DNA of 64,000 bases, taken from NCBI GenBank assembly GCA_043724245.1, contig JAYSMZ010000018.1:626-64625 (forward strand), written 5' to 3'. Each line of letters starts with the position of its first letter. The stretch's first letter is position 1. Positions 1 through 24,985 of this stretch are shown piece after piece. A model generated the notes under the pieces. The model searched no databases and was not told where the DNA came from. It was given only the letters and a program-made list of their open reading frames with translations. The translations under genes were made by a program, and so were the position numbers. This DNA is from a bacterium. GTDB lineage: Bacteria; Patescibacteriota; Saccharimonadia; Saccharimonadales; Saccharimonadaceae.

Positions 1-382
1 CGAAATTGACGATTGCATAGGCCATAATCGCAACAACAAGCCCAACCACTGCATACAAAACCGTATCTTTGGCCGCTGTGACGTTTTTGGCATCACCGCC
101 CGAAATGGTATATCGGATACCTCCGTAAATAATCATTAGGACGCTGACTGCACCGATAATAAATAGAAAAACATTAACAATTGTCGTAAAAATACCAGAC
201 TTACAGGCGGCGGCGCCTGTTTTGCTGTTAGTAAACAGACAGACCTTATCGACACTGTCCCCCCGGGCAACTTTTGCGCCGTCAGTTAAATCTGACGCCG
301 AGGCAAATTGAGTAACACCCAACGCCAGCACTGGGATCATCAAAAGACCTGCTAACAAAATTCTGATTGATTTTATTTTCAT
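1..382 (-). CDS. T4SS pilin-like small membrane protein, paralog 1 (3' end runs off the window)
   Basis: Not in the ORF track because it is open at the window edge. ATG at 382-380. My translation: MKIKSIRILLAGLLMIPVLALGVTQFASASDLTDGAKVARGDSVDKVCLFTNSKTGAAACKSGIFTTIVN...IYGGIRYTISGGDAKNVTAAKDTVLYAVVGLVVAIMAYAIVNF. Signal peptide plus 2 TM helices, with the same C-terminal module as 409-819 and 954-1370. Confidence 0.75.
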   Translation of the reverse strand, partial: MKIKSIRILLAGLLMIPVLALGVTQFASASDLTDGAKVARGDSVDKVCLFTNSKTGAAACKSGIFTTIVNVFLFIIGAVSVLMIIYGGIRYTISGGDAKNVTAAKDTVLYAVVGLVVAIMAYAIVNF

Positions 383-408
383 ATTTTCCCCTTTTATTGT
401 TTTATAGA

Positions 409-819
409 TTATGCACCTGGTGTTAAGCTTGTGATAACAAAGTTGACGATTGCATAGGCCAAGATTGCAACAACAATCCCCACAATCGCATACAATATAG
501 TATTTTTGGCGGCGGTTACGTTTTTAGAATCACCGCCGGAAACTATATAGCGGATACCACCGTAAATCAGCATAAGGACACTGATTGCACCGATAAGGTA
601 AAGGGCGATGTTGGTAATTTTTTGAAAAATACCACCATTGCCAAATAAATCTGATGGTTGGCTTGATCCTTGCGCCGAGCTAGCACCACCAGCAGCTCCA
701 GTAGTAAAGTTTACAGCCGAAACAGTTTGCGACGTTGCTCCAGCTAAACTTAGCCCCAAAACCATTATAGGCACAGCCAAAATACCGGCAAAGATAGTTT
801 TTATTAATTTCATTTTCAT
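409..819 (-). CDS. T4SS pilin-like small membrane protein, paralog 2
   Basis: 136 aa. Signal peptide, short variable Gly/Ser-rich ectodomain, then two TM helices joined by IYGGIRYIVSGGDSKNVTAAKNTILYAIVG. This is TrbC/VirB2-like topology, within a tandem array of paralogs. Confidence 0.8.
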   Translation of the reverse strand: MKMKLIKTIFAGILAVPIMVLGLSLAGATSQTVSAVNFTTGAAGGASSAQGSSQPSDLFGNGGIFQKITNIALYLIGAISVLMLIYGGIRYIVSGGDSKNVTAAKNTILYAIVGIVVAILAYAIVNFVITSLTPGA

Positions 820-953
820 TTATTGCCTCCTTCTCGCTGTTCAAAAATGACCTGAAAGCGATTAATAACCTTGCTCTATTTATAACAGATAATCGCTTAT
901 ATTTAAATATCCGCCCATTAAGAAGGCGGATATTTTCTTTTTATCGGTAATTA

Positions 954-1370
954 TTATTTTGGAATCAATCCGGTAATAACAAAATTAACGATCGCATAAG
1001 CCAGAATTGCCACTATAAGACCTACGATTGCATATAAAATCGTGTCTTTGGCCGCTGTGACGTGTTTAGAATCACCGCCGGAAATCGTATAGCGAATGCC
1101 TCCGTAAATCAACATAATAACGGCAATTGCCCCGATTATGAATAAAAAGATGTTAACAATAGTTTGGAATATTCCACCGCTTCCAAAGAGTGTCGTCGGT
1201 GTATTATTGGTGTCGTCCCGCGTACATTCCACTCCATTTTCAAGTGTTGGATTGTCACAATTTGAATTTGCCGCAAAAGTGCTGGCTGGCATCATCATAC
1301 CAACCCCGACCGCCATTAGGGGCGCTGCCAATAACCCTGCTAGCATGATTTTGATTGATCGTATTTTCAT
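954..1370 (-). CDS. T4SS pilin-like small membrane protein, paralog 3
   Basis: 138 aa. Signal peptide, variable head containing a Cys pair (NCDNPTLENGVEC), and a conserved tail IYGGIRYTISGGDSKHVTAAKDTILYAIVGLIVAILAYAIVNFVIT. Confidence 0.8.
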   Translation of the reverse strand: MKIRSIKIMLAGLLAAPLMAVGVGMMMPASTFAANSNCDNPTLENGVECTRDDTNNTPTTLFGSGGIFQTIVNIFLFIIGAIAVIMLIYGGIRYTISGGDSKHVTAAKDTILYAIVGLIVAILAYAIVNFVITGLIPK

Positions 1371-1483
1371 TTAATTATTCCTTTCGCTATTTAGTATTTG
1401 TTCTTTACAAATTACATAAGCGGATTAGTTGTTAATACCTTTATAGCAGATAACCAATCTTTTGTTAATAGGTGTTTGGTTTA

Positions 1484-1873
1484 TTATGCCCCAAACTGTC
1501 CAATAATATAGTTTACGATTGCATATGCCATAATCGCAACTATCAGACCGACTACGGCGTACAGCAAGGTGTTTTTTGCCTTGGTTACCAGTGTCGCGTC
1601 CCCACCGGAAGTTGTGTAGGTAATGCCAGCTATAATTATGACGATAACTGAAACTGCCGCAAGAATAAACAACAAAGTATTGACTATTATCTTTACATAA
1701 TTTGGAAGTTTGTTTGTTGTTCTACTTTTACACAGGACAGAATTTGCTGCGGCTCCAGTACAGGAGTCCTTTAATGGGTCATAGGGAGCAGCACCGGCGT
1801 GTGCTGGTATCAAGAACAGACCAAAGCTTACGATAAAACCTAGAGTTAATATCAGATATTTAATTTTTTTCAT
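1484..1873 (-). CDS. T4SS pilin-like small membrane protein, paralog 4
   Basis: Same architecture, with head Cys pair (DSCTGAAANSVLC) and tail TYTTSGGDATLVTKAKNTLLYAVVGLIVAIMAYAIVNY. I prefer the internal ATG at 1873 (MKKIKYL..., preceded by a GGGGGA RBS-like run) over the track start at 1891. Confidence 0.75.
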   Translation of the reverse strand: MKKIKYLILTLGFIVSFGLFLIPAHAGAAPYDPLKDSCTGAAANSVLCKSRTTNKLPNYVKIIVNTLLFILAAVSVIVIIIAGITYTTSGGDATLVTKAKNTLLYAVVGLIVAIMAYAIVNYIIGQFGA

Positions 1874-1907
1874 CTTGCCGATGTCCCCCAATAATTTTTA
1901 TATGCCA

Positions 1908-2216
1908 TTAAAACTTTCCTGTCATTTTCCCTATCACAAATTGAGTTATAAAAAATGCCAGGATTACCACTATTAAACCGATAACGGAGTACAAGATGGC
2001 GTTCTTTGCCTTGGCTATTTTTGCCGGGTCGTACGATGCCGATGCAAATGAAAAACCGGAGAGAATAATAATTATTACCGCAACAGCCCCAACTATAAAA
2101 TATATCCCATCTAATACTCCTCCGAGTACGCTAACTGCGCTTGTGTGGGGAATACTGACTTCGGTAGTTTTAATCTTAACCGGATCTACTGCTGCTAATA
2201 TTTCTAATATCATCAT
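1908..2216 (-). CDS. Short divergent pilin-like two-TM protein, paralog 5
   Basis: 102 aa. Two TM helices with a linker ASASYDPAKIAKAKNAILYSVIGLIVVILAF that echoes the ..AAK.TILYA.VG.. module. There is no obvious signal peptide. 4-nt overlap with the upstream gene. Confidence 0.6.
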   Translation of the reverse strand: MMILEILAAVDPVKIKTTEVSIPHTSAVSVLGGVLDGIYFIVGAVAVIIIILSGFSFASASYDPAKIAKAKNAILYSVIGLIVVILAFFITQFVIGKMTGKF

Positions 2217-2653
2217 TTTATTACCTTATCAAATACAAAATTAACTAATGCTATCGCGGAAATCATCAAGACTAACCCCATAACGGCCATTGTCATTATC
2301 GAACGTGCCTTGGCGGCAGTTTCAGGTTTACCTTGGCTGATAATAAACATCCAGCCTCCAAACAAGAACATAAACCCAGACAAATAGGCGGCAACCACGA
2401 TTGCCATTTCAACTATATTAAGCACAATAAGCCAAATAAACCTACTTAACCCCCCGGCGCTGGCCGGACTTTTTATATTGCACTTGTTGTCAGTCAGGCC
2501 TCGGTACCATGACGGAAACCCCAAAAAGCCTTGATTACAACTATCAGAAAGGCCTGCAGCGCTTGTCGTTTGAGGCGTAGTAGTAACAACCATAACCCCG
2601 CCAACAGCCGCAATTATGACGAATGATGTTATCCAGTTACGTAAGCTTTTCAT
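2213..2653 (-). CDS. Divergent pilin-like membrane protein, paralog 6
   Basis: 146 aa. Signal peptide, Cys pair (DSCNQGF...NKC), two TM helices with a loop IISQGKPETAAKARSIMTMAVMGLVL. Overlaps neighbours by 4 nt on both sides. Confidence 0.65.
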   Translation of the reverse strand: MKSLRNWITSFVIIAAVGGVMVVTTTPQTTSAAGLSDSCNQGFLGFPSWYRGLTDNKCNIKSPASAGGLSRFIWLIVLNIVEMAIVVAAYLSGFMFLFGGWMFIISQGKPETAAKARSIMTMAVMGLVLMISAIALVNFVFDKVIK

Positions 2654-3039
2654 GGCGAAAACAGACCTCCTGGAATAATAAAATTCAAAAAGGCAAACAT
2701 GGCAGCGTATACTATTATGCCTAAAATTACATTCGATAAGAATATATTGGCTTTCTTAATCCTGTCAGGGCTGCCACCGGCCGTCATATACATAACAGAT
2801 CCAAACACTACTCCGCCAACAGCCGCAATCCCGACTCCGGCGGTAAGAAAATTTATTGCCATCAGTAACAATCCCCAAATACCAGTGTCCTTGATGTTTG
2901 TTTTAGATTTTCCCTCCGTACAAGATATTATCGAAGTCTTGACGCCACCACACGTCGCGGCAGATGCAACAGGGCCAACAAAAACACCAGTCAGCCCTAT
3001 TATTAACCCAATTAAAAGTATTGTTTGTTTTATTTTCAT
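2650..3039 (-). CDS. Divergent pilin-like membrane protein, paralog 7 (first gene of the array)
   Basis: Signal peptide MKIKQTILLIGL..., Cys pair (ATCGGVKTSIISC), two TM helices with a loop MTAGGSPDRIKKANIFLSNVILGIIV. I prefer the ATG at 3039, which matches the MK.K starts of the paralogs, over the track start at 3078. Confidence 0.65.
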   Translation of the reverse strand: MKIKQTILLIGLIIGLTGVFVGPVASAATCGGVKTSIISCTEGKSKTNIKDTGIWGLLLMAINFLTAGVGIAAVGGVVFGSVMYMTAGGSPDRIKKANIFLSNVILGIIVYAAMFAFLNFIIPGGLFSP

Positions 3040-3188
3040 GCCTATTAATAAAGTACGATAAAAACTAGTATTACGCAAGTGTTTTAGAAAAACGTTATCA
3101 GATTAGTATTGCATTTTTTGCGTTTTTAGTGTATAAATATCTGTAACAACTTGGTTACTAATTATTAGCGTATGAAGGGATATAAACC

Positions 3189-4019
3189 GTGAAAAGTGAA
3201 TCAATAACAGATTGTGGTCATGAACGTAAGAAGTTTTCACCAAAGAAAGCAGTTGCGTCTGTAGCCGCGTTTGCGGTTTTTGCTACAGCTGGTATAGGTT
3301 GCGGCAAAGAGTTAACCAAAAGCCAGCCTCAACCAAAACCGACAAAAACCGAAATTGCTAGCCCAAGTCCCGAAGCAACCCCTGCTAACGTAGATATGTT
3401 TACCAACGCCATGGAAAAATACAAGAGAATGGACGTTGAAACGTTCGATGAATTACCATTTGACGAACGATTGCAGTATTCACAGTACGCAATAGACCTT
3501 ACTGTTTTGTCTGGCGAATATAAAGTTCTCTATGGACAAGCAAAATCCCGCGAATACAAGATAAAACCCGAGCCAGTTTCTATTGACAGCAACGGACAAG
3601 AAATATTAGACGCTAATTTATACAACAGACAATTGGCATATATCAATGTCGGTGACGGTAAAAGCACAGGCGATTGGGCGGTTAATTATGATACCAGAGA
3701 CGGCGAAAAGATTTTTAATAGCGTTTATTATGAGACTAGAAAAGGTAAGATGGTTTCCGTTGATTATCTTGATAACGTAGCAGAGCTAGAAAAAATGGGG
3801 AAAAGCGAACAAGACATGTTCTTAAAAAATAAATGGACCGCAACAGGAACAAGCGATCTTATGTCGGGCAAGGATAGGCAAGGTAATACAATTCAGTATA
3901 AAAACGTCAAATTTCATAATCAAGACGGCAAGGATTTTGAGGGAAAGTTTATTTATAAAACATATGAAAATTATGACGGTAATGAACAAGGGGTCTGGTT
4001 ACTGGATTTTTTCTATTAA
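3189..4019 (+). CDS. Putative lipoprotein, unknown function
   Basis: 276 aa. The N-terminal hydrophobic segment ends in a lipobox-like ATAGIGC. It is followed by a Pro/Thr-rich linker and a soluble domain. Divergent from the pilin array. Confidence 0.55.
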   Translation: MKSESITDCGHERKKFSPKKAVASVAAFAVFATAGIGCGKELTKSQPQPKPTKTEIASPSPEATPANVDMFTNAMEKYKRMDVETFDELPFDERLQYSQYAIDLTVLSGEYKVLYGQAKSREYKIKPEPVSIDSNGQEILDANLYNRQLAYINVGDGKSTGDWAVNYDTRDGEKIFNSVYYETRKGKMVSVDYLDNVAELEKMGKSEQDMFLKNKWTATGTSDLMSGKDRQGNTIQYKNVKFHNQDGKDFEGKFIYKTYENYDGNEQGVWLLDFFY

Positions 4020-4136
4020 AAAATTTGTTTAATAAAATGTATAATCTAAATCGAGAAAAACAACTATTTTTTAAGTTGACATGAAATCTAATACATTCTT
4101 GTATAACCATAGCCCTTGTGGTTAAATGTAGATATC

Positions 4137-7100
4137 ATGTGGCGCAAACACACATTCAAAAAAATTATTCTATTCTCGATGATTACATTGATCACATTTG
4201 GAATGGTCGAGCCTCTATTTATGACTACCGTTCGGGCCTTTGGGTCAGGAGGAGGAAGTACTGGCGGAACCTCTACCCACCTCTCCGACAAATTCACTCC
4301 AGTAGATGGTGCTCGATCATGGCTGTACCTTCGAATGCTATCTTATTGTTTTTCAATTACTCCACTGATTGACGGTGATAAAATATCGGCGGAACACGCA
4401 GAAAAAATAAATTGGTTCAAGGATCCAGGATATCAACCTGTCTATAATAATGGTGTAGCTGGTCCACCTAAACTGGATTTGATTGAAGACAACAGTTTTC
4501 TATCTGAGGCCGGATTCACTAGTGGTGTTAGTTGTTACAAATTTGAAGACACTCCCTCCACCAATAAATCGAGTTGGATACGGAATGCTGTTAAATTGTG
4601 GGGATATGATTCGGCAGCCTCAGCACTTTGTGACTTTGGGTTTGTGCGCGCAAACAGCCCGAATGACAGTGGGAATGATTGTGTGAATGGCAGCGGAGAT
4701 TTTAAGAGCCCAAACGGCACTAGGCTTGATTCTGATAAATTCAGACTAAGCGTTCTGTCAAAGGTTTACGGTGGAAATTTTGGTAATGACCCAACATTAA
4801 CAAAAGCACAAAATTATACATTTAATTGGTATTCATTTAGAGACCGTTGTTTGGGACTTGCAAATAGTATGACGCCATCCAATGCTGGTCCTGCCGAGAG
4901 ACAATATCATGTCAATGTGGTAGATAATTCGACTGGTAGGGTATCTAGAGTGGCATTTGTTGGCATGAAACCAAGAACAGAAACAATTTACAATCTTACG
5001 TCTATACAATCTCCTCAACGAGGCAATCTGAGCGCCCAATGCGGTGCAATGGAAGCAGTAATAAATGCTAATGCCGCTGCTCTTTCGACATGGATCAAGA
5101 ACAATATAAAAAATGGTGGAGGTGGTAATGTAGTTGACCCAACAAGCAATGAGGCTTTGAATCCTAGCGGCGGCACGAATAATAACACAACAGATAACAG
5201 TTGCGGGGCACAGGTATCAGGGATTGGATGGATAATTTGTCCTATTATAAGTGCATTGACGAAATTAGATGACGGGATGTGGTCATTAGTGTCGGGTCTT
5301 TTAAACGTCAGCCCAATCAAACAATCCAACCAAGCCAAAAGTATTTACAGTGCTTGGGGTTCAATCCGAAGTATCGCAAATATTCTTTTTGTAATATTTT
5401 TCCTTGTCATTATATTTTCTCAATTAACAGGCGCCGGTATCACGAATTATGGTGTCAAAAAAATGTTGCCGAAGATAATTATTGCGGCAATCTTGGTTAA
5501 CGTTTCGTTCATTATTATTCAGCTTGCTGTGGATTTGGCTAATATCATAGGCTCGAGTCTTTATAACTTCATCGTTGGTATGGCACCAGCATACACAGTA
5601 GGATGGGGTAGTGCGTTAGACATACTGGTAGGTGTTGCGGGAGCCGGAGCTGCGGCTGTTGGTGTAGTGGCTTTAGCCGGAGGACCGACTGCCTTATTCT
5701 TTATCTTGTTGGGACTTGCCTTAATAAGCGCGCTTGGATTATTAACAGCGGTTCTTACGCTTATATTTCGTCAGGCCGCTATAATTGTCTTGGCTATACT
5801 TGCACCATTAGCCTTCGTAGCCTATCTGCTTCCAAATACCGAAAGTTGGTTTAAAAAATGGAGAGGATTACTGTTGTCAATGTTAATGATGTATCCGATG
5901 GCTGCACTTATTTTTGCTGGCGCACAATTTGCAGCAGCGACAATTATCGGCAATGGCAAAGACTTTTGGAATATAATGATTGGACTGACAATGATGGCCT
6001 TGCCACTATTTTCTTTGCCATTCATAGCCAGACAAGGTGGTTCAATATTATCCAGGGTCAACGGTGCGTTACAAGGCGTGGCTAATCGGGCGAACCAGCC
6101 GATAAGAGACACGGCCAAAAGCTTCTCGGACAGCGCCGCCGCCAGGTTTCGAGCCAACAACGCGGATCAACGTGGCGGAGTATTAGGGGGCTTCCAGCGA
6201 GTTGGTAGAGGCCTTAGCTATCCTTCACGACACCTTAGTAGGGCATGGGAGGGTGCACGACTAAACCGCGAAGCCCAAACCGAAACAGCACAAAGTGAGC
6301 TCAAATCACAACTAGGCCGTAATCAGGTTCGTGGTATGTTCGGCAGAAGAATCAGGGGCCAAGAGACGGACGTAGCAGCAGCCGCAGCCAAGGAGATGCT
6401 GGCCCAAAACGCAACAATGACAAGCACAAGATTGAAAGAACAAAACCCTACAATAAACGCCAGGCATGGTGAAACAATGGGGTTAAATGAGCGTGGATAT
6501 GCGGCAGAAGGGAATAAAAAGGTCGCTGAGGCAAGGGTTAAGGAGGGCTTAATGGAAAATAGAGGATTTGATGAACTCAGACGACAAATTGACCACTCTG
6601 AATCTATCGCGGGCGCCGCGGAAAATCGAGCCGCGGGACGAGTCGAACGAGACCCGACTACATTACAAGTACGAAGAGATGCTTTCGAAGCCGAGGCTGA
6701 CCTTAATACTGATAAAAAGTGGACTGAAACGGGAATTGGAATCGACTCCACGCTAGACGACACAAGAGCAAGATTAGAGGAAGCAACAGTGGCAGCAGAA
6801 GGTGCAACTAGCGACGCGGCAGCCCTCACTGAATTGGACCCTCGCGTCCAGACAATGAAATCCTATGCCGAAGGTGCAAAAATGAGACACGAGGCAGCCC
6901 AAGAAGTAACCAAACAAACGATTGCAGATGACCCAACATTAGATGCCGATAGAGATCGGCTTGAAAATGCAAAGACGATCGCAGATACAGCGACGAAACT
7001 TGCTAGTGACAGAACCGAAGCTAAACCTGAGATATTAAGGGCAAGGGCTGCGAATAAAGCTGCTGAGCGCAAACTGGACACAACTAAAAAGAATGTGCAG

Positions 7101-8267
7101 ACAACTATTACGAGTGCTAGTTCAGATACCCCATCGGCAGAAGCAATCGCAGGCATCGATGCGGCAACGAGACTCTCACTACATACCACTGCAGTTGAAG
7201 AGGAAAGAGCCAAGCAAGAAAGTGACGAGGCTACGGATACACTAGCAACTGACCTCGAAAATAATCTGACATTACAAGATGAGCGATTGGCAGCCGCAAC
7301 TGCCAAAAAGGAACATGAGGCAGCAACCTCACAAAATACTCAACTTGTCACTGAAGCAACGTCAGGAGTGAAAGCAGAACCAGGCTCGAGATTGGCCGGA
7401 GTTGACGCTACAATACGAACTAGGCTGCAAACGGCACAGTTTGCAGCCAGTAATGCAGCCAGCGCAACTAGCCAAGCGCAACGTGAAATAACCTATGACT
7501 ATACAGAGGAGTTGTTGGACGATTCAACAGGTGCCGCAACGGCGGCGGCTGGCATAGGCGGACAAGAGGCAGAGGTCCGAGTTAAAGCTGGTGCAACTGC
7601 CGCACAATCAAAGCAGATGCAGGAGGACGTATCTGCAAATAAAACATTATTCGCCGAAAGAGGCCTAACGACTGGTGACGATCCAAAAGAATCAGCCGAT
7701 AAGCACCAGATACTAGACATTATTGTAAATGGCGTAGTACCAGGTGTTGGCGGTGCCCCGCCGACCACGGCAACAACGGAAGAGTTAATAACGGCTGATG
7801 AAATGATGGTTGATACTACCTCGAGGATGGGCATGGCACAAACATGGGACGCGATTGCAGCTATGCCTGGAGGACCTACCGCGACAGAAGAACAAAGAAC
7901 GGCAAAACGACGTCGAGCACAGGCATTTCGAGATTCTCTTAAACGGTCCGGCAATAGTCCAAAGTTCATTGGTGGTGCCGCTATGGGCGATCTTGCTGCC
8001 GGCACACCAAGCGATACTTATATGACTCTGGCTAAAAAAGTCATGCAAAAAACAAAGATTTCCGCTGGCGACTTTCTTGGCTTAGATAAGGACGAAATTG
8101 GTATATACGGCGCCGTTCTTGCAGATGACCCTAGTGTATTGAGCAATGACCAGAAAGAAGCCCTTCGTGTATCTATAGAAGAAGCTTATGAAGATAAGGA
8201 CATCAGAGGTCATCTATCTCAGGAAAAAAGAGACCGGATGGACGCGCTTTACGGTCTCTTGTCGTAA
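4137..8267 (+). CDS. Giant VirB6/TrbL-like polytopic T4SS membrane protein with long Ala/Glu-rich C-terminal tail
   Basis: N-terminal signal/TM, then a ~380-aa Cys-containing ectodomain. A block of about 6-7 hydrophobic helices follows (e.g. ILFVIFFLVIIFSQL, AILVNVSFIIIQLAVDLANIIG, LAILAPLAFVAYLLPNTESWFKKW), as in VirB6/TrbL. After that comes a ~740-aa low-complexity, coiled-coil-like tail. ATG 4137 (MWRKHTFKK) is preferred over TTG 4116. Confidence 0.7.
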   Translation: MWRKHTFKKIILFSMITLITFGMVEPLFMTTVRAFGSGGGSTGGTSTHLSDKFTPVDGARSWLYLRMLSYCFSITPLIDGDKISAEHAEKINWFKDPGYQPVYNNGVAGPPKLDLIEDNSFLSEAGFTSGVSCYKFEDTPSTNKSSWIRNAVKLWGYDSAASALCDFGFVRANSPNDSGNDCVNGSGDFKSPNGTRLDSDKFRLSVLSKVYGGNFGNDPTLTKAQNYTFNWYSFRDRCLGLANSMTPSNAGPAERQYHVNVVDNSTGRVSRVAFVGMKPRTETIYNLTSIQSPQRGNLSAQCGAMEAVINANAAALSTWIKNNIKNGGGGNVVDPTSNEALNPSGGTNNNTTDNSCGAQVSGIGWIICPIISALTKLDDGMWSLVSGLLNVSPIKQSNQAKSIYSAWGSIRSIANILFVIFFLVIIFSQLTGAGITNYGVKKMLPKIIIAAILVNVSFIIIQLAVDLANIIGSSLYNFIVGMAPAYTVGWGSALDILVGVAGAGAAAVGVVALAGGPTALFFILLGLALISALGLLTAVLTLIFRQAAIIVLAILAPLAFVAYLLPNTESWFKKWRGLLLSMLMMYPMAALIFAGAQFAAATIIGNGKDFWNIMIGLTMMALPLFSLPFIARQGGSILSRVNGALQGVANRANQPIRDTAKSFSDSAAARFRANNADQRGGVLGGFQRVGRGLSYPSRHLSRAWEGARLNREAQTETAQSELKSQLGRNQVRGMFGRRIRGQETDVAAAAAKEMLAQNATMTSTRLKEQNPTINARHGETMGLNERGYAAEGNKKVAEARVKEGLMENRGFDELRRQIDHSESIAGAAENRAAGRVERDPTTLQVRRDAFEAEADLNTDKKWTETGIGIDSTLDDTRARLEEATVAAEGATSDAAALTELDPRVQTMKSYAEGAKMRHEAAQEVTKQTIADDPTLDADRDRLENAKTIADTATKLASDRTEAKPEILRARAANKAAERKLDTTKKNVQTTITSASSDTPSAEAIAGIDAATRLSLHTTAVEEERAKQESDEATDTLATDLENNLTLQDERLAAATAKKEHEAATSQNTQLVTEATSGVKAEPGSRLAGVDATIRTRLQTAQFAASNAASATSQAQREITYDYTEELLDDSTGAATAAAGIGGQEAEVRVKAGATAAQSKQMQEDVSANKTLFAERGLTTGDDPKESADKHQILDIIVNGVVPGVGGAPPTTATTEELITADEMMVDTTSRMGMAQTWDAIAAMPGGPTATEEQRTAKRRRAQAFRDSLKRSGNSPKFIGGAAMGDLAAGTPSDTYMTLAKKVMQKTKISAGDFLGLDKDEIGIYGAVLADDPSVLSNDQKEALRVSIEEAYEDKDIRGHLSQEKRDRMDALYGLLS

Positions 8268-8382: not shown

Positions 8383-8718
8383 TTATTTATTCAACCGACT
8401 AGCAACAGCAAACTGCATAAAATATCGCTCCAAGTTTTGGTCTTGACCCGATTTACCAGCATCACTTAATATGGCCGTTAGATACACTTCTTTAGCTCGT
8501 AATACTTCTTTGGATTTGGGGGATTTATTGGCAATTAACGTTGATATGGTCGCATCAAACAAATCAATCGCACGCCTTACGGCCTGCAAACAACCCTCAT
8601 TGTCATCGCGGCGCTTAGCACTAAAAGACCTGCCGACCTCGCTTGAAATATTGCCCATTTGGTTAAAAATATTCATTTTCGACCAGCGCTCCTGGTCAAC
8701 TGCGTATGACTCATTCAT
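8383..8718 (-). CDS. Hypothetical helical protein (cassette gene 2)
   Basis: 111-aa ORF with a 4-nt overlap with the upstream gene. I recognise no motif. Confidence 0.5.
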   Translation of the reverse strand: MNESYAVDQERWSKMNIFNQMGNISSEVGRSFSAKRRDDNEGCLQAVRRAIDLFDATISTLIANKSPKSKEVLRAKEVYLTAILSDAGKSGQDQNLERYFMQFAVASRLNK

Positions 8719-9056: not shown

Positions 9057-9086
9057 ATAGATAGTATACCAGAGCGGAAAGGTGAG

Positions 9087-9118
9087 TTATACTATAAGCA
9101 GTATGGCGGTATATAAAG
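9087..9118 (+). repeat. Direct repeat copy 2 (contains the -10-like TATACT and start codon of the prgI-like gene)
   Basis: See the 8303-8334 entry. Confidence 0.9.
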
Positions 9119-10077
9119 TCCCCCAAGATGTTGAAGCTGACGATAAATTAATCGGACCGTTTAGTTTTCGCCAGTTTATTTATCTGGTTATTGTCGCTTT
9201 GGCAATTATGATGGCGTGGGGATTGGCGCAGTTATTTGTCCCTCTTTTAGTTCTGCCGTTGCCAATCATCATATTTTTCGGTGCACTTGCCTTGCCACTG
9301 CGCAAAGACCAACCAATGGAAATATACATGGCGGCAATGGTGTCGTTTTTCCTGAAACCACACCGACGTTTATGGGACCCGGATGGTATTGATTCATTAA
9401 TTGAAATTACCGTACCAAAAATTATCGAATACAGCCGAACTAAAGATTTATCTATGTCCGAAGCCGAACGCCGTTTTAGTTATTTGGCTGAAATAGTCGA
9501 CAGCCAAGGGTGGGCTATCCGTGGACCCGGAGTCCAAGCACCAAATAGTGCTATGACAAGCGACGCATATTTTGAAGCTCAGTCTGTCGAGGACATATTG
9601 GATAACAACGCAACAACTTCGCTTTCACTATCTGATAAATTAAAACAAAGTGAAGCCCGCCTGCGCCAAGAGGCGGTCGACATTATGCATAAAAAAGTGT
9701 TCGCGCCCAAACCACAGCCTGTTGCTACAGCCCAGCCAAAGCAACTGGCTCAGCCTCAGCCTGTTCAACCAATGCCAAGTCCTGCCAGTTATTTTGGAGG
9801 CACACCACTTGTCGAACCGGCTATTGCCGCTGAGCCAACAGTCGCTACGCCGATCAACTATAACCCATACCCAGATATCAGACAGTCGGTCATCGAACCA
9901 ATCGGGCAACAAAAACCAGCGGCCAAACCAAAAACAACCACTAGCGCAAAGGTGGTACCAGCTGGTATAATAAACCTCGCTAGTAATACCGATCTAACAA
10001 TCGCGGCTATTGCTCGTGAAGCTGATAGAATTCAGAAAAAACAAGACGCACAAGAGGTAATAGTTAAACTTCGATAG
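9103..10077 (+). CDS. PrgI/VirB3-like T4SS membrane protein with Pro/Gln-rich C-terminal extension
   Basis: The N-terminus MAVYKVPQDVEADDKLIGPFSFRQFIYLVIVALAIMMAW is followed by a second TM helix. This matches the PrgI-family (VirB3-like) signature of Gram-positive T4SS. ATG 9103 is preferred over GTG 9082. Confidence 0.65.
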   Translation: MAVYKVPQDVEADDKLIGPFSFRQFIYLVIVALAIMMAWGLAQLFVPLLVLPLPIIIFFGALALPLRKDQPMEIYMAAMVSFFLKPHRRLWDPDGIDSLIEITVPKIIEYSRTKDLSMSEAERRFSYLAEIVDSQGWAIRGPGVQAPNSAMTSDAYFEAQSVEDILDNNATTSLSLSDKLKQSEARLRQEAVDIMHKKVFAPKPQPVATAQPKQLAQPQPVQPMPSPASYFGGTPLVEPAIAAEPTVATPINYNPYPDIRQSVIEPIGQQKPAAKPKTTTSAKVVPAGIINLASNTDLTIAAIAREADRIQKKQDAQEVIVKLR

Positions 10078-10108: not shown

Positions 10109-10939
10109 ATGCCGCCAAACAATCAAACGCCAGTACAACCGCCTGCCGCTCCGCCTGCAGGTAATTCTGCTATCCAGGGCTCTGGTACCAATGCTCCTGC
10201 ACCACAAAAGCCAAAAAACCCTAATTCTACCCAAAACACCCTGTTATTATCAGAGATCCGCGACAATATGGTCATCATGACTGATGGTTCGTTCCGCGCT
10301 GTTGTTGCCTGCAAATCAATAAACTTCGATTTGATGAGCAGTACCGAACGCGAAGGCGTCGAATACAGTTACCAAAATTTCCTGAATGCCCTAAACCATC
10401 CAGTTCAAATACTTATCCGTTCACAACGTATTGATATTGGCCCGTACATTGAACGTCTAGTCGAAATACGTCGCAACCAGGATAATATGCTGCTAAACGT
10501 TTTGATGGATGATTACATCGACTATATCGATATGCTGTCCCAAGAAGCGAATATTATGGACAAATCATTTTTTATCGCAATTCCATACTATGCGCAGGGC
10601 GATGTTAACAACCTGGTTGAACAAGGCAAGGGATTCTTTGGCAAGTTATTTGGCGGAAATAAAAATATTATTACTAAAATTGACACTATCACTTACGAAA
10701 AAGCCAAAACTGAAATAAAAAACAGAGTTGACGGTGTTATGGCCGGGTTGTTCCAATTGGGAATACAAAGCGTCCAATTAAACACCAAAGAACTTGGCGA
10801 ACTGTATTATAACTTTTATAACCCAGACACAGCAGTACGCGAACCACTAGGAGATTTTGACAACGTAACATCGATTTATACCAAAAAAGCAACTGCTGAT
10901 ACACCAGTCGAACAAGCAGGAACAGAGGTAACAGAATGA
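10109..10939 (+). CDS. T4SS protein resembling a detached VirB4 N-terminal domain
   Basis: 276 aa. A disordered Pro-rich N-terminus precedes IRDNMVIMTDGSFRAVVACKSINFDLMSSTEREGVEYSYQNFLNALNHPVQILIRSQRIDIGPYIERL. That pattern is like the CagE/TrbE/VirB4 N-terminal region. The stop overlaps the VirB4 start as ATGA. Confidence 0.5.
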   Translation: MPPNNQTPVQPPAAPPAGNSAIQGSGTNAPAPQKPKNPNSTQNTLLLSEIRDNMVIMTDGSFRAVVACKSINFDLMSSTEREGVEYSYQNFLNALNHPVQILIRSQRIDIGPYIERLVEIRRNQDNMLLNVLMDDYIDYIDMLSQEANIMDKSFFIAIPYYAQGDVNNLVEQGKGFFGKLFGGNKNIITKIDTITYEKAKTEIKNRVDGVMAGLFQLGIQSVQLNTKELGELYYNFYNPDTAVREPLGDFDNVTSIYTKKATADTPVEQAGTEVTE

Positions 10940-12837
10940 TGGCACGAAAAAAATCCGATGTTTCCGAAATCGCTGCCGAGCAACGCGAACGTGAACAAAT
11001 CGAAGTTGAACAAGCATTTTTAAAGGGCGTTACAACACTTCGTGATTTAATCGCCCCCAGTAGTATCGAAATTCATTCATCACATTTTAGACTGGGAACA
11101 AAATATGGACGGACGCTATATATATATGGATACCCGCGACAAATTTATACCGGTTGGCTGAGTTCGCTGATTAATATTGACGAGGTTTTAGATGTCAGTA
11201 TGTTTGTTTATCCGGTTGAAAGTCAGGTTGTTCTGAAAAACTTGCGTAAAAAAGTGACTCAGCTGGAAGCGTCAATGTCAATTAACAGCGAAAAAGGCCG
11301 GATTCGGGACCCAGGTCTGGAAGCCGCTATCGGCGACGCCGAAGAACTTCGCGACCAATTGCAGGTTGGAGCCGAAAGGTTTTTCCGCTTCGGACTTTAC
11401 ATAACACTATATGCCGACAGTATGGATGAACTAGGGTTTGTCCAACATAAAATTGAAACGATTTTTGGCCAGCAAATGGTTTTCAGCAAAGTCGCCAGCA
11501 GTCAGCAAGAACAGGGATTGAACAGCACTATACCGCAAATGTCAGACCAGTTACAAATTCGTCGCAACATGGACACGGGTGCAATCAGCACAAGTTTCCC
11601 ATTCACCAGCGCCGATTTGACCCAAGAAAACGGCATACTTTATGGAATTAATATGCATAACAATGGCCTAGTCATCTTTGACAGGTTTAGTTTAGAAAAT
11701 GCTAATATGGTGGTTTTTGCAAAGTCGGGTGCAGGCAAATCTTTCACGGTTAAACTTGAGGCTTTGCGAAGTTTGATGACTGGTACTGAAGTCATTATCA
11801 TCGATCCGGAAAGTGACTACAAAAAACTTTGTGATGCGGTAGGTGGCAGTTATATTCGCCTAAGCTTGAATTCGAACACCAGGATTAATCCTTTTGATTT
11901 ACCGCGTGTTATTGATACCGACGAAGCCGACAATGCTTTGCGTGCCAATTTAATTACCCTGCATGGACTATTAAAGCTTATGCTGGGCACTACTCAGCCG
12001 ACAACAACCGGCGTCCCAATGCCTTCGGCATTAACTCCTACAGAAGAGGCAGACCTAGATCAAGCATTAATTGATACTTATGCTCGTGTCGGGATTACAG
12101 CCGATCCGTTGACGCATAATTCACAACCGCCAACAATCAGCGACTTGTATGATACGCTTTTGCACATGGGTGGCAGTGGGCCAAGTTTGGCTCAGCGTTT
12201 GCGGAAATACACGTCTGGAACTTTTGCCGGGATATTCAGCCAGCAATCCAATACTGAAATAAATAATATGATGGTGGTATTTAATACTCGTGACCTAGAG
12301 GATGAATTGCGACCGGTTGCAATGTATATTATTCTCAGTCATATCTGGAATTTAATCCGTGCAGAAAAAAAGAAACGGCTTTTAATAATTGATGAGGCCT
12401 GGGAAATGATGAAATATGACGACTCGGCAAACTTTTTATTCAGTCTGGCCAAACGAGCTCGTAAATATTATTTGGGCCTGACGACAATCACACAGGATGT
12501 CGAAGATTTTATGAGCAGTAAAATGGGGCGCGCCATCGTTGCCAACAGTTCGATGTCGATTCTGTTAAAGCAATCGCCAAGTGCAGTTGATGTCATGTCG
12601 AATGTCTTTAAGTTAACAGATGAGGAAAAGAAGCGATTAGCAAATTTCCCAATCGGCCAAGGTTTGTTCTTTGCCGGACAAAGCCACGTCCATATACAAA
12701 TTGACGCCAGCGATGCTGAAAAACAAATAGCCAACACCAATCCTCAAATTGCCGACCAGCCAATAGGTCCACAACCAACTCAACCAAACAGTGGGCCCAG
12801 CGCTAGTAGTTATATTAACCCCGAATCAAGCGTGTAA
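10936..12837 (+). CDS. virB4: VirB4-family T4SS ATPase
   Basis: 633 aa. Walker A is FAKSGAGKSFTVK and Walker B-like is LLIIDEAWEMM. The upstream motif GRTLYIYGYPRQIYTGWLSSL is typical of Gram-positive VirB4/TrsE-type ATPases. Confidence 0.85.
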   Translation: MMARKKSDVSEIAAEQREREQIEVEQAFLKGVTTLRDLIAPSSIEIHSSHFRLGTKYGRTLYIYGYPRQIYTGWLSSLINIDEVLDVSMFVYPVESQVVLKNLRKKVTQLEASMSINSEKGRIRDPGLEAAIGDAEELRDQLQVGAERFFRFGLYITLYADSMDELGFVQHKIETIFGQQMVFSKVASSQQEQGLNSTIPQMSDQLQIRRNMDTGAISTSFPFTSADLTQENGILYGINMHNNGLVIFDRFSLENANMVVFAKSGAGKSFTVKLEALRSLMTGTEVIIIDPESDYKKLCDAVGGSYIRLSLNSNTRINPFDLPRVIDTDEADNALRANLITLHGLLKLMLGTTQPTTTGVPMPSALTPTEEADLDQALIDTYARVGITADPLTHNSQPPTISDLYDTLLHMGGSGPSLAQRLRKYTSGTFAGIFSQQSNTEINNMMVVFNTRDLEDELRPVAMYIILSHIWNLIRAEKKKRLLIIDEAWEMMKYDDSANFLFSLAKRARKYYLGLTTITQDVEDFMSSKMGRAIVANSSMSILLKQSPSAVDVMSNVFKLTDEEKKRLANFPIGQGLFFAGQSHVHIQIDASDAEKQIANTNPQIADQPIGPQPTQPNSGPSASSYINPESSV

Positions 12838-15976: not shown

Positions 15977-15977
15977 T

Positions 15978-16478: not shown

Positions 16479-16479
16479 T

Positions 16480-21795: not shown

Positions 21796-21807
21796 AACAG
21801 GTTATAA

Positions 21808-24948: not shown

Positions 24949-24985
24949 TTTGGCTATTAGAATTTAGAAGATAGCCAATAGCAAT

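What the first reader, a model, noticed from the sequence alone, without database searches (positions are those of the whole stretch)
1..3078. Seven-gene tandem array of pilin-like paralogs: conserved tail, hypervariable Cys-bracketed head
All seven ORFs share one topology: signal peptide, short ectodomain, TM, loop, TM.

Paralogs 1-4 share a nearly invariant C-terminal module, IYGGIRY.(I/V)SGGD.K.VTAAK.T(I/V)LYA(I/V)VG..VAI.AYAIVN. Within that module, long stretches of nucleotide identity are visible, e.g. tagaatcaccgccggaaa in both 409-819 and 954-1370.

The 30-45 residues after the signal peptide are unrelated between copies. In most copies they contain exactly two cysteines (NCD...VEC, DSC...LC, VCLF...AAC, SCNQ...KC, TCGG...SC).

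This conserved-scaffold, variable-exposed-loop pattern is what one expects from diversifying selection or recombination on a surface filament. It could reflect antigenic or host-range variation, or a heteropolymeric pilus.
Basis: seen in the sequence. Interest (0 to 1): 0.7.

Follow-up and report, generated by a model that had tools for sequence, protein, structure and literature searches.

The report
Saccharibacterial secretion-system pilin gene array
These seven small genes are the VirB2-like "pilin" array that sits beside the chromosomal type IV secretion system of Saccharibacteria, a feature already published and shown to be essential in a cultured relative; the copies are old, stable, specialised paralogs, not a fast-varying surface-antigen repertoire.

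Summary
Seven minus-strand genes (1-3078, the first cut by the window edge) encode small two-helix membrane proteins. Their tails are conserved and their N-terminal heads are mutually unrelated, mostly bracketed by two cysteines.

They belong to Pfam T4SS_pilin (PF18895) and lie beside VirB6-like/PrgI/VirB4 genes, next to dnaA. The synteny matches the essential pilin array SEML1_0014-0019 of Southlakia epibionticum, so the kind is already published.

The variation reading is not supported:
- Each of the seven copies has a positional ortholog in related genomes. Ortholog heads are about 50% identical; paralog heads are 17%, the shuffled level.
- Synonymous sites between paralog tails are saturated, and no gene-conversion tract is significant.
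- Head pN never exceeds pS.
- Two other samples carry the locus at 100% nucleotide identity.

Across 79 loci from other Saccharimonadia genomes the order is p7-p6-p5-p4 followed by 1-5 distal copies.

Two features appear new. Cysteine-pair spacing is specific to each paralog type. The p3-type gene has its own conserved extended -10 promoter and terminator, while p7, p6 and p5 overlap by 4 nt.

Best model: a heteromeric T4SS filament or tube with p3 as major subunit. This is a new member of a known kind, of modest interest.

The parts
1..382 (-). p1: distal pilin paralog. Its C-terminal 6 codons and stop lie beyond the window start. Head is SDLTDGAKVARGDSVDKVC...AAC.
   Evidence: Full 133-aa protein from L002 (100% nt identity). 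PF18895 38.1 bits against a cutoff of 26.6. Orthologs at the last array position in L003, L005, L006 and L007.
409..819 (-). p2: distal pilin paralog with a Cys-free, Gly/Ala/Ser-rich head (AVNFTTGAAGGASSAQGSSQPSDLFG).
   Evidence: PF18895 46.1 bits. Ortholog heads are 84% identical in L003 and L005.
879..892 (-). Promoter-like element TTATCTGTTATAAA (TGn-extended -10, TATAAA at 884-879) upstream of p2.
   Evidence: Two matches in the window against 0.07 expected. The same element is seen in L003, L005, L006 and L007. Function is inferred.
905..935 (-). Perfect 12-bp hairpin (AAAAUAUCCGCC/GGGCGGAUAUUU) immediately after the p3 stop, followed by a U/A-rich run. Terminator-like.
   Evidence: Fold z-score -3.4. 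A hairpin sits at the same place in 7 genomes, with 3 pairs showing compensatory changes. Function is inferred.
954..1370 (-). p3: candidate major pilin, 138 aa. Head is C-x10-C followed by TP..LFG. It forms its own transcription unit.
   Evidence: PF18895 46.8 bits. 4186 homologs, and 98/120 of the best have exactly 2 head Cys. AF2 model with hairpin helices 67-96 and 101-135 at pLDDT above 90.
1440..1468 (-). Sigma-70-type promoter upstream of p3: -35 TTAACA (1468-1463), 17-nt spacer, TGc-extended -10 TATAAA (1445-1440).
   Evidence: TTAACAAA and TAT.TG.TATAA are invariant in 7 genomes. In 66 complete arrays the motif precedes the last pilin in 47% and positions 1-4 in 0-2%. Background is 0.034 per kb. 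Function is inferred.
1484..1873 (-). p4: fourth core paralog, 129 aa from ATG (a TTG at 1891 would give 135 aa). Head is C-x9-C.
   Evidence: PF18895 33.9 bits; TrbC/VirB2 PF04956 26.5 bits, below its 27.9 cutoff. Cys spacing median is 9 in the 44 type-4 orthologs with two Cys.
1908..2216 (-). p5: short core paralog of 102 aa, with no signal peptide and no Cys. Its start overlaps the p6 stop by 4 nt.
   Evidence: PF18895 45.6 bits. NCBIfam NF045849 (Mbov_0395 pilin-like conjugal transfer protein) 44.1 bits against a cutoff of 40. No signal peptide in the six related loci; 0 Cys in 54/54 type-5 genes.
2213..2653 (-). p6: core paralog of 146 aa with a strongly conserved head, C..GFLGFPSWYRGL....C (Cys spacing about 21). 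Its start overlaps the p7 stop by 4 nt.
   Evidence: PF18895 26.1 bits, just under the 26.6 cutoff. hhalign against the p3 family gives probability 98.1%. Head alignment; 66/72 orthologs have 2 Cys.
2650..3039 (-). p7: first gene of the array, 129 aa from ATG (a TTG at 3078 would give 142 aa). Head is CGGV.TS.I.C. C-terminus is LNFIIPGGLF.
   Evidence: PF18895 is sub-threshold in p7 and orthologs (16-22 bits). hhalign against the p3 family gives probability 96.4%. Alignment.
3189..4019 (+). First gene of the divergent T4SS operon: 276-aa exported protein of unknown function.
   Evidence: No Pfam hit. A gene of 276-378 aa without a family hit sits at the same position in L001 and L005-L009. An 837-bp gene occupies a comparable place in ML1 (SEML1_0012); its equivalence is not established.
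4116..8267 (+). VirB6/TrbL-like polytopic membrane protein (1383 aa) with a long Ala/Glu/Thr-rich C-terminal region.
   Evidence: The translation shows a multi-TM block. Counterparts at the same position in L008 and L009 carry PF19590 TrbL_3. No direct Pfam hit here.
9082..10077 (+). PrgI (VirB3-like).
   Evidence: PF12666, E 5e-11.
10936..12837 (+). VirB4-family ATPase.
   Evidence: NF045971 conju_CD1110, 367.5 bits against a cutoff of 325. PF19044.
12857..19647 (+). Two very large cell-wall hydrolase proteins (VanY-type carboxypeptidase; amidase_3 plus GDSL) with a 170-aa ORF between them. Probable VirB1-type wall-remodelling functions.

Best explanation
The array is the VirB2-like pilin gene set of the chromosomal, origin-proximal, monoderm-type type IV secretion system found across Saccharimonadia (Patescibacteria). 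It is the syntenic counterpart of the pilin array SEML1_0014-0019 of Southlakia epibionticum.

Biogenesis (inferred). Six of the seven proteins are exported by Sec-type signal peptides. They insert as a helical hairpin with the N-terminal head outside, a short positively charged loop inside, and the C-terminus outside. The head of five copies is probably closed by one disulfide.

What the copies are (shown). The seven are not interchangeable variants. They are ancient paralogs kept in a fixed order, each under purifying selection.

How they work together (inferred). They co-assemble on the VirB4/VirB6/PrgI machine into one heteromeric filament or tube. The p3-type protein, on its own conserved strong promoter with its own terminator, is the major shaft subunit. 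The co-transcribed core genes p7-p6-p5-p4, of which p7/p6/p5 overlap by 4 nt, are low-copy initiator, tip or base subunits. p2 and p1 are lineage-specific extra distal subunits.
For: Family and context:
- PF18895 is above its cutoff for p1-p5, 0.5 bit below it for p6, and sub-threshold but consistent for p7. All types are linked by profile comparison.
- The array is adjacent to VirB6-like, PrgI, VirB4 and wall hydrolase genes.
- dnaA, dnaN and recF lie at 20.7-24.6 kb.

Synteny with ML1:
- ML1 has the order dnaA-dnaN-recF-T4SS-six pilins (132, 185, 103, 126, 127, 138 aa)-convergent Hsp20.
- All six ML1 pilins are called essential by Tn-seq. This includes the last gene, where polarity cannot explain the result (PMC10633639).

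Stable paralogs:
- The same seven-gene order occurs in L003, L005, L006 and L007.
- The order 7-6-5-4-(distal x1-5) dominates among 79 loci from other genomes.
- Ortholog heads are 50% identical against 17% for paralog heads, which is the shuffled level.
- pN is below pS throughout.

Disulfide:
- Head Cys counts are almost always 0, 2 or 4, with type-specific spacing. Tails are essentially Cys-free.

Expression architecture:
- An invariant TTAACA-N17-TGnTATAAA lies upstream of p3-type genes and is about 80-fold enriched there.
- A hairpin follows the p3-type gene in 7 genomes.
- p7/p6 and p6/p5 overlap by 4 nt.

Fold: AF2 gives a confident two-helix hairpin.
Against: - No filament has been shown for this system in any Patescibacterium, and monoderm T4SSs normally lack pili.
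- Foldseek found no significant match to solved VirB2, TraA or any other pilin. PDB sequence search found none. A helical hairpin is too generic to discriminate.
- The major-subunit role of p3 rests only on promoter and terminator anatomy. No expression or proteomic data were examined.
- In 53% of surveyed arrays my strict promoter pattern was not found before the last pilin.
- Essentiality of the upstream ML1 pilins could partly reflect polar effects.
- Signal-peptide cleavage sites and the disulfide are inferred from sequence only.
Confidence: 0.6

Rival explanations
1. Variation system. The copies are a repertoire of exposed heads that diversify under positive selection or by recombination or gene conversion on a constant scaffold, giving antigenic or host-range variation. 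Quinonero-Coronel et al. 2025 also suggest it, by analogy with Bartonella and Anaplasma.
For: - Heads are unalignable between paralogs.
- Heads evolve 3-5 times faster than tails between orthologs: dN 0.09-0.66 against 0.03-0.24.
- The number and type of distal copies differ among species, from 1 to 5.
- The suggestion appears in PMC12102498.
Against: - Each head type is conserved at its array position across genomes with saturated dS.
- pN never exceeds pS. Head pN/pS is about 0.1-0.3 where dS is not saturated, and the p3-type gene is the most conserved.
- Paralog tails have pS of 0.55-0.83, and no identical run is significant after correction.
- The locus is 100% identical in contigs from other runs.
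- All copies are intact, with start codons and ribosome-binding-like sequences. There are no silent cassettes.
Confidence: 0.08
2. No pilus. The seven hairpin proteins are membrane-embedded or wall-spanning stalk or channel subunits of a pilus-less monoderm T4SS, comparable to the small VirB2-like proteins of Mycoplasma ICEs. Their heads contact the peptidoglycan or other machine parts and do not decorate a filament.
For: - Monoderm T4SSs generally lack pili (PMC10633639 and PMC12857230).
- p5 passes the NCBIfam cutoff for the Mycoplasma ICE Mbov_0395 pilin-like family, and p2-p4 hit it weakly.
- A fixed stoichiometric set with overlapping genes fits a machine component.
- No structural match to solved pilins was found.
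Against: - A gene with its own strong promoter and terminator (p3) suggests one subunit made in large excess, as for a polymer.
- Cryo-ET of the Saccharimonadia member M. amalyticus shows an unassigned tube 8.6-9 nm wide and 60-70 nm long, with a tip density, running from its inner membrane to the host (PMC11880426). On my recollection, not checked here, that width is in the range of VirB2-family pili.
Confidence: 0.22
3. Alternative major pilins. The core p7-p4 set is constant, but the distal copies p3, p2 and p1 are alternative shaft subunits used under different conditions or with different hosts. That would be a slowly evolving host-range repertoire, and the three would not be co-polymerised.
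For: - p3 and p2-p1 form separate promoter/terminator units.
- Distal copy number varies from 1 to 5 between species.
- Distal tails are 70-78% identical, so they could fit the same lattice.
- A stray distal-type pilin outside the array is non-essential in ML1 (SEML1_0024).
Against: - In ML1 both distal pilins of the array (0018, 0019) are called essential on a single host.
- p2-type and p1-type heads are themselves well conserved between species (84% and 49%), which argues for fixed roles.
Confidence: 0.15

Closest known systems
Essential pilin array of the Southlakia epibionticum ML1 T4SS (SEML1_0014-0019; Wang et al. 2023, Cell, PMC10633639)
   Same: - Same synteny: dnaA-dnaN-recF, T4SS genes, divergently transcribed pilin array, convergent Hsp20.
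- Same size pattern, including a ~100-aa third gene that overlaps the second.
- Same Pfam family, PF18895.
   Different: - Seven genes here against six in ML1, with one more distal copy.
- The nearest genome found is an uncultured lake MAG, GCA_026395405.1, with 73% identity on p3.
VirB2 arrays of Patescibacteria (Quinonero-Coronel et al. 2025, Microb Genom, PMC12102498)
   Same: - The paper reports 441 arrays of 2-11 VirB2-like genes, most abundant in Saccharimonadia and Microgenomatia.
- These are often near virB4 and dnaA.
- Within-array identity is low, averaging about 25%.
   Different: - A text search of that paper found no mention of a signal peptide and no mention of cysteine in connection with the pilins, and the passages read describe no positional orthology or promoter.
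- The paper suggests host-adaptive variation, which my comparisons do not support.
- p1-p3 here are more similar overall (48-56%) than the paper's average.
VirB2/TrbC/TraA conjugative pilins of diderm T4SSs (Pfam PF04956)
   Same: - Small size, a cleavable leader, two hydrophobic helices joined by a short basic loop, and genetic linkage to VirB3, VirB4 and VirB6.
- p4 gives a near-threshold PF04956 hit.
   Different: - Diderm systems normally use one pilin plus a VirB5 tip protein. Here there are seven paralogs and no VirB5.
- A disulfide-bracketed N-terminal head is not, to my knowledge, a VirB2 feature. This rests on my recollection and was not checked here.
- There is no significant sequence or fold match to solved pilins.
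Tandemly amplified VirB2 genes of Bartonella Trw (trwL) and Anaplasma phagocytophilum virB2 paralogs
   Same: Multiple tandem VirB2-family genes in a host-interaction T4SS. PMC12102498 cites them as the analogy.
   Different: Those arrays are interpreted as variable surface repertoires. Here the copies are ancient and positionally orthologous, with saturated synonymous divergence and purifying selection.
Major/minor pilin sets of type IV pili and type II secretion pseudopili (functional analogy only)
   Same: One abundantly expressed major subunit with its own promoter, plus a conserved operon of several low-copy paralogs that share the assembly scaffold and differ in the exposed part. Cys-bracketed exposed loops are also typical of those pilins. 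This comparison rests on my own knowledge.
   Different: The fold, the machinery and the leader are unrelated. No N_methyl or prepilin-peptidase motif is present. The division of labour here is inferred from gene anatomy only.
Mbov_0395-family pilin-like conjugal transfer proteins of Mycoplasma ICEs (NCBIfam NF045849)
   Same: An ~80-residue two-helix protein in a monoderm MPF-FATA-type T4SS. p5 scores 44.1 bits against a cutoff of 40.
   Different: - It is a single gene per ICE, as far as I recall; this was not checked here.
- The other six paralogs fall below the cutoff.
- The system here is chromosomal. No relaxase or coupling-protein family appeared among the T4SS-side ORFs scanned. The ORFs at 41-64 kb were not scanned.

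Membership tests
Pfam PF18895 T4SS_pilin | Whole-protein score at or above the gathering cutoff of 26.6 bits. | tested here: met
   p1 38.1, p2 46.1, p3 46.8, p4 33.9 and p5 45.6 bits. p6 scores 26.1, which is 0.5 bit short. p7 scores 16.0, and its orthologs 16.8-21.7. So the cutoff is met for five copies and not for p6 and p7 on score alone.
Pfam PF18895 T4SS_pilin | Homology of the below-threshold copies (p6, p7) to the family. | tested here: met
   hhalign of ortholog alignments against a clean 120-sequence p3-family profile gives p7 probability 96.4% (E 1e-9), p6 98.1% (E 1e-13) and p5 98.8%. Caveat: hydrophobic helices inflate such scores.
Saccharibacterial chromosomal T4SS pilin array (as in S. 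epibionticum ML1) | Array lies between the divergent VirB6/PrgI/VirB4 operon and a convergent Hsp20 gene, close to dnaA-dnaN-recF. | tested here: met
   Window gene content. Hsp20 is seen just beyond the window start in L002 and in L003 and L005-L009. ML1 gene table.
Saccharibacterial chromosomal T4SS pilin array (as in S. epibionticum ML1) | Essential for epibiotic growth. | not testable with these tools
   Known only from Tn-seq in ML1. This organism is uncultured.
VirB2/TrbC conjugative pilin (PF04956) | Score at or above the gathering cutoff of 27.9 bits. | tested here: not met
   Only p4 hits, at 26.5 bits. The other copies give no hit.
VirB2/TrbC conjugative pilin (PF04956) | Leader peptide followed by two hydrophobic helices joined by a short basic loop. 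| tested here: met
   Hydropathy segments. The AF2 model has helices 3-26, 67-96 and 101-135, with the hairpin at pLDDT above 90. The p3 loop RYTISGGDSKHVTAAKD is net positive by inspection of the sequence. p5 lacks the leader.
VirB2/TrbC conjugative pilin (PF04956) | Structural similarity to solved conjugative pilins. | tested here: inconclusive
   Foldseek against PDB gave no match with E of 0.001 or better. The top hits are generic helical hairpins. The PDB sequence profile search found nothing.
VirB2/TrbC conjugative pilin (PF04956) | Polymerises into an extracellular pilus on a VirB4-dependent machine. | not testable with these tools
   The only lead is an unassigned 8.6-9 nm tube in M. 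amalyticus cryo-ET.
Type IV pilins (T4P/T2SS; PF07963 N_methyl) | Class III signal peptide with a prepilin-peptidase site and an N-methylated hydrophobic N-terminal helix. | tested here: not met
   No N_methyl hit for any copy. The leaders look Sec-type, with a basic n-region, an h-region and A-x-A.
Pilin or surface-antigen variation systems (gene-conversion or amplification repertoires) | Recent recombination tracts, or high nucleotide identity in the constant part. | tested here: not met
   Tail nucleotide identity is 55-74% and pS is 0.55-0.83. The longest identical run is 20 nt, with permutation P of 0.03-0.98.
Pilin or surface-antigen variation systems (gene-conversion or amplification repertoires) | Variable region under positive selection, or differing between close relatives. 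| tested here: not met
   Head pN is below pS in all 26 window-to-ortholog comparisons and in all 630 pairs of a 15-species clade. Contigs from other runs are identical. Codon site models and true strain-level sampling were not possible.
NCBIfam NF045849 (Mbov_0395 pilin-like conjugal transfer protein) | Score at or above the cutoff of 40 bits. | tested here: met
   p5 scores 44.1 bits. p4 scores 36.0, p3 26.6 and p2 22.4, all below the cutoff. The cutoff is met for p5 only.

The most novel reading that the evidence does not exclude
The seven paralogs build a heteromeric VirB2-family tube, which would be the first such case. Known conjugative pili are homopolymers of one VirB2 pilin with a VirB5 tip.

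In this reading the p3-type protein forms the shaft. The four universally conserved, co-transcribed paralogs p7-p6-p5-p4, each with its own fixed disulfide loop (or none, for the leaderless p5), form the initiation or tip complex that replaces VirB5.

The structure could correspond to the unassigned, barb-tipped 'lance/conduit' about 9 nm wide and 60-70 nm long that cryo-ET shows bridging Mycosynbacter amalyticus to its host. That would make it the feeding or injection tube of Saccharibacteria.
Probability: 0.3. Interest if true: 0.75.

Novelty: new member of a known kind. Interest (0 to 1): 0.33.

Why it matters
Saccharibacteria and other Patescibacteria live attached to host bacteria. Their T4SS, pilin array included, is essential, yet a 2024 review calls its role 'completely unknown' (PMC11665869).

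This instance adds no new kind of system. The cross-genome comparison does sharpen the question:
- The array is a fixed set of specialised subunits and not a variable repertoire.
- One subunit type carries a dedicated, conserved promoter and terminator.
- Each type has its own disulfide-loop signature.

Together these yield concrete, testable assignments (major against minor subunits, exposed epitopes) for people working on cultivable strains such as ML1, TM7x or M. amalyticus. They also argue against the published analogy to antigenically variable VirB2 arrays.

Tried and rejected
- **Related loci via the VirB6-like protein.** A genome-contig scan with the 1383-aa protein found no confirmed relative. 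I replaced it with a pilin-alignment scan.
- **Solved-structure searches.** The PDB sequence search with the pilin profile gave only chance hits at E about 0.7. Foldseek against PDB with the AF2 model returned generic helical hairpins only, so fold comparison cannot confirm or deny VirB2 kinship.
- **Generic promoter/terminator scan of 1-4200.** It showed no enrichment over shuffles and missed the conserved promoter, because that promoter's -10 ends in A. Cross-species alignment found it instead.
- **Gene-conversion test.** Runs of 19-20 identical nt between p1, p2 and p3 tails are not significant after correction for six tests.
- **dN/dS between the window and its nearest relatives.** dS is saturated, often with pS above 0.75, so omega is unreliable. 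I used a better-sampled sister clade for unsaturated estimates.
- **First hhalign runs.** These used a target alignment that contained the window's own p5-p7. I discarded them and repeated the comparison with a clean profile.
- **Rfam and tRNA scans of the window.** Nothing found.
- **Readings considered and rejected.** Type IV pilins: no prepilin motif. Decaying duplicate copies: all are intact, conserved across genomes and under purifying selection. Holin- or bacteriocin-like small membrane proteins: the T4SS synteny and the PF18895 hits argue against them.

Full report
**1. What is in the sequence**

ORF listing and direct reading show seven consecutive minus-strand genes between 1 and 3078.
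- p1 is 1-382. Its ATG is at 382-380, and the last six codons and stop lie beyond the window.
- p2 is 409-819 and p3 is 954-1370.
- p4 is 1484-1873, or 1484-1891 from an upstream TTG.
- p5 is 1908-2216 and p6 is 2213-2653.
- p7 is 2650-3039, or 2650-3078 from an upstream TTG.

A Logan contig that is 100% identical to the window over 1454 nt (L002) supplies the full 133-aa p1. It also shows a hairpin terminator and a convergent gene beyond the window start; the same place holds Hsp20 in L003 and L005-L009.

Hydropathy and an AlphaFold2 model of p3 give the following layout: an N-terminal signal-peptide helix, a 30-45-residue head, then a two-helix hairpin. The model has mean pLDDT 79.6 overall and above 90 over the hairpin (helices 67-96 and 101-135).

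p5 is the exception. It has 102 aa, no signal peptide and no cysteine.

Five of the seven heads contain exactly two Cys; p2 and p5 have none.

**2. How conserved the tail is and how different the heads are**

- Tail identity is 70-78% among p1-p3.
- It is 52-64% between p1-p3 and p4.
- It is 20-38% for p5-p7 against the rest.
- Head identity between paralogs averages 0.17, the same as shuffled heads (0.17 +/- 0.09).

So the 'conserved tail, unrelated heads' observation holds. However, 'nearly invariant' applies only to p1-p3, and 'all seven share one topology' fails for p5.

**3. What family it is**

Pfam PF18895 (T4SS_pilin) is hit above its curated cutoff by p1-p5. p6 falls 0.5 bit below the cutoff, and p7 and its orthologs hit it sub-threshold.

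Clean profile-profile comparisons link the p7, p6 and p5 ortholog groups to the p3 family with probabilities of 96-99%. An earlier run was contaminated by self-sequences and was discarded.

p4 nearly reaches the TrbC/VirB2 cutoff. p5 passes the NCBIfam cutoff for the Mycoplasma-ICE 'Mbov_0395 pilin-like conjugal transfer protein'. None of the copies has a type IV prepilin motif.

The divergently transcribed neighbours are:
- an exported 276-aa protein of unknown function;
- a 1383-aa VirB6/TrbL-like membrane protein;
- PrgI (VirB3-like);
- a protein matching the TraC-like family in orthologous loci;
- a CD1110-family VirB4 ATPase;
- two proteins of more than 1000 aa carrying cell-wall hydrolase domains.

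recF, dnaN and dnaA follow at 20.7-24.6 kb, with rnpA, yidC and jag on the other side of the presumed origin.

p3 has 4186 database homologs. Those that carry names are called 'pilin [Candidatus Saccharibacteria]' or come from Saccharimonadales.

**4. It is a published kind of locus**

- Wang et al. [quoted passage not shown]
- Their Tn-seq table shows dnaA-dnaN-recF, then T4SS genes SEML1_0004-0013. Six plus-strand pilins, SEML1_0014-0019, follow (132, 185, 103, 126, 127 and 138 aa), all called GD/ES/ES. A convergent Hsp20 comes next. This is the mirror image of the window.
- Quinonero-Coronel et al. 2025 (PMC12102498) counted 441 VirB2 arrays of 2-11 genes in 383 Patescibacteria assemblies. 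These are enriched in Saccharimonadia and often near dnaA. The authors suggested, by analogy with Bartonella and Anaplasma, that the variability might help adaptation to host strains.

**5. Testing the variation hypothesis**

I retrieved syntenic loci from related uncultured Saccharimonadia (L003, L005-L009), plus 79 loci from GTDB species-representative genomes.

*Positional orthology.*
- L003, L005, L006 and L007 have the same seven genes in the same order.
- Each window paralog has an ortholog at the same position with a recognisably conserved head. Examples are the p6 head C..GFLGFPSWYRGL....C, the p7 head CGGV.TS.I.C, the p2 Cys-free head AV(N/D)F.TGA.GGA.SAQG..QPSDLFGNGG, and the p1 head SDLTDGA.AA.G....C.F....C.
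- Ortholog heads average 50% identity and ortholog tails 79%.
- Among the 120 best p3 homologs, 98 have exactly two head Cys, in a shared C-x(10-12)-C...TP..LFG pattern.

*Divergence.*
- Synonymous differences between paralog tails are saturated (pS 0.55-0.83). The longest identical runs (19-20 nt) are within what codon-position-preserving permutation gives, with P of 0.03-0.10 uncorrected for six tests. The tails are therefore kept similar by selection on the protein, not by recent duplication or conversion.
- Between orthologs, heads accumulate 3-5 times more non-synonymous change than tails. Even so, pN never exceeds pS.
- In a 15-species sister clade with unsaturated pairs, head pN/pS is 0.03/0.28 to 0.13/0.46 and tail pN/pS is 0.00-0.02/0.19-0.32. 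None of the 630 pairs has pN above pS. The last, p3-type gene is the most conserved of all.

*Strain level.* Contigs from two other sequencing runs match the window at 100% over 8033 nt and 1454 nt.

There is no head diversification between the closest sequences available. Divergence along the gene is not uniform, but the pattern is relaxed constraint and not positive selection.

**6. Architecture across the class**

In loci with complete arrays, arrays of 5-7 genes dominate: 16 arrays of five, 41 of six and 7 of seven.

The first three positions are almost always p7-type, p6-type and p5-type. The fourth is usually p4-type. These are followed by 1-5 distal genes of the p1/p2/p3 type.

Cysteine content is type-specific:

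| Type | Cys in the head | Median spacing when there are two |
|---|---|---|
| 7 | 2 in 45/67, 4 in 14/67 | about 10 |
| 6 | 2 in 66/72 | about 21 |
| 5 | 0 in 54/54 | not applicable |
| 4 | 2 in 44/56 | about 9 |
| distal (1-3) | mostly 0 or 2 | about 12 |

Tails are essentially Cys-free. The dominance of even counts in an exported segment supports one intramolecular disulfide per pair, but this is an inference.

**7. Expression anatomy, which I did not see described in the papers read**

- p7/p6 and p6/p5 overlap by 4 nt (ATGA). p5 and p4 are 16-34 nt apart.
- p4 to p3 and p3 to p2 are separated by 113 and 134 nt.
- The p4-p3 spacer contains TTAACA-N17-TATAAA with a TGn extended -10, at window 1468-1440 on the minus strand. 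TTAACAAA and TAT.TG.TATAA are invariant in seven genomes.
- Directly after the p3 stop there is a perfect 12-bp hairpin at 935-905 (z = -3.4). A hairpin occupies the same place in all seven genomes, with compensatory changes.
- A second TGnTATAAA element (892-879) precedes p2. A terminator follows p1 just outside the window.
- In 66 complete arrays, the pattern TTRAYA-N13-15-TGnTAKAAH precedes the last pilin in 47% of arrays, a middle distal pilin in 10%, and positions 1-4 in 0-2%. Background is 0.034 per kb per strand.

The p3-type gene is thus a self-contained transcription unit embedded in the array. That arrangement is expected for a subunit needed in large excess. Promoter and terminator function are inferred and were not measured.

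**8. Most likely mechanism**

*Shown:*
- family membership;
- synteny with an experimentally essential T4SS;
- fixed paralog order;
- purifying selection on heads and tails;
- type-specific Cys patterns;
- the conserved promoter and hairpin sequences.

*Inferred:*
- Sec export and signal-peptide cleavage for six copies. p5 would insert without a leader, but the positive-inside rule predicts the same orientation.
- A hairpin with head and C-terminus outside and the basic loop inside.
- Disulfide closure of the head loop.
- Extraction and polymerisation by the VirB4/VirB6/PrgI machine into one heteromeric structure. p3 would be the shaft subunit, p7-p4 low-copy initiator, tip or base subunits standing in for the missing VirB5, and p2 and p1 additional distal subunits.

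In ML1 each array pilin is called essential on a single host. That includes the terminal one, where polarity cannot be the cause. This fits non-redundant roles.

Cryo-ET of Mycosynbacter amalyticus shows an unassigned tube 8.6-9 nm wide and 60-70 nm long, with a tip density. It runs from the parasite's inner membrane into the host interface (PMC11880426). On my recollection, not checked here, that width is in the range of VirB2-family pili. This is a lead, not evidence of identity.

The thin filaments of that organism were later shown to be unrelated Ig-fold 'Pam' pili (bioRxiv 10.64898/2026.03.03.709456). So not every filament in these bacteria is a T4SS product.

**9. Rivals**

- A variation repertoire is disfavoured, for the reasons in section 5.
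- A pilus-less channel or stalk role cannot be excluded. Monoderm T4SSs usually lack pili. p5 resembles the Mycoplasma ICE protein. Neither Foldseek nor PDB sequence search links the model to solved pilins.
- The distal copies might be alternative and not co-assembled subunits. Their separate transcription units and variable number fit this reading. The essentiality of both distal array pilins in ML1 argues against it.

**10. Verdict**

It is another instance of the published Saccharibacterial T4SS pilin array, so it is a new member of a known kind.

The 'diversifying selection or recombination' interpretation is not supported. The 'heteropolymeric pilus' alternative is the best-supported model but remains unproven.

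The incremental findings are modestly interesting and directly testable in the cultivable strains:
- positional orthology of the paralog types;
- type-specific disulfide loops;
- a leaderless, Cys-free p5 type;
- a dedicated promoter and terminator for the p3 type.

Noticed in passing
window 20737-26987: Replication-origin neighbourhood. recF, dnaN and dnaA lie on the minus strand (20737-24555). rnpA, yidC and a Jag-like KH/R3H gene lie on the plus strand (25127-26987), with a ~570-nt gap at 24556-25126 that probably holds oriC. The T4SS therefore starts less than 1 kb from recF, as in S. epibionticum ML1.
   Followed up: partly
window 6001-8000 (within ORF 4116-8267): The C-terminal half of the VirB6-like protein is a long Ala/Glu/Thr/Gln-rich, low-complexity or coiled-coil-like region. 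It has GC 0.505 and AT skew 0.33, against about 0.40 GC elsewhere. The gene at the equivalent position differs widely in length in related loci (790-1383 aa).
   Followed up: no
window 8383-9056 (minus strand): Two small opposite-strand genes sit between the VirB6-like gene and prgI. One is a DUF5674 protein (E 1e-29). In related loci (L005, L006, L007) the VirB6-like and PrgI genes are adjacent with no such genes between them.
   Followed up: no
window 3079-3188 and the equivalent regions of L005-L009: The divergent intergenic region between p7 and the T4SS operon contains a conserved motif, TTATACACTAAAAACG(Y)AAAAAA(W)GCAAT. It is seen in six genomes and is possibly the shared divergent promoter or an operator.
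   Followed up: no
window 34087-41239 and onward to ~56000: Surface-polysaccharide cluster: GDP-mannose 4,6-dehydratase, epimerases, a Wzm/Wzt-type ABC exporter and two FkbM methyltransferases. It lies in a region of lower GC (0.34-0.36 at 38-56 kb against about 0.41), which may indicate horizontal acquisition.
   Followed up: no
L048 (JBLMYW010000041.1) and L053 (DATJIC010000017.1): Contigs carrying typical six-gene Saccharimonadia pilin arrays are filed under MAGs named Acidobacteriota and Verrucomicrobiia. This is most likely binning contamination.
   Followed up: no
L005:8176-8661 and L007:7610-8083: The p7-type orthologs in these two genomes carry an inserted segment with a second Cys pair (AKCG..TLK.GESCCGGV...C). 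About 20% of p7-type proteins in the survey have four Cys.
   Followed up: partly
L008:12056-12451 (minus strand): A stray p2-like distal pilin is encoded about 1.6 kb outside the array, beyond Hsp20. ML1 likewise has a non-essential pilin (SEML1_0024) outside its array.
   Followed up: no
L003:1836-2297; L008:10001-10420 and 12056-12451; L009:7955-8428: Some pilins carry short, low-complexity C-terminal extensions, such as NSSSATTTTTTTTHIS, GTGATA, GGGSSGGTNV, or a Pro/Gly-rich 25-mer. These would be surface-exposed if the C-terminus is outside, and they might be glycosylation sites.
   Followed up: no
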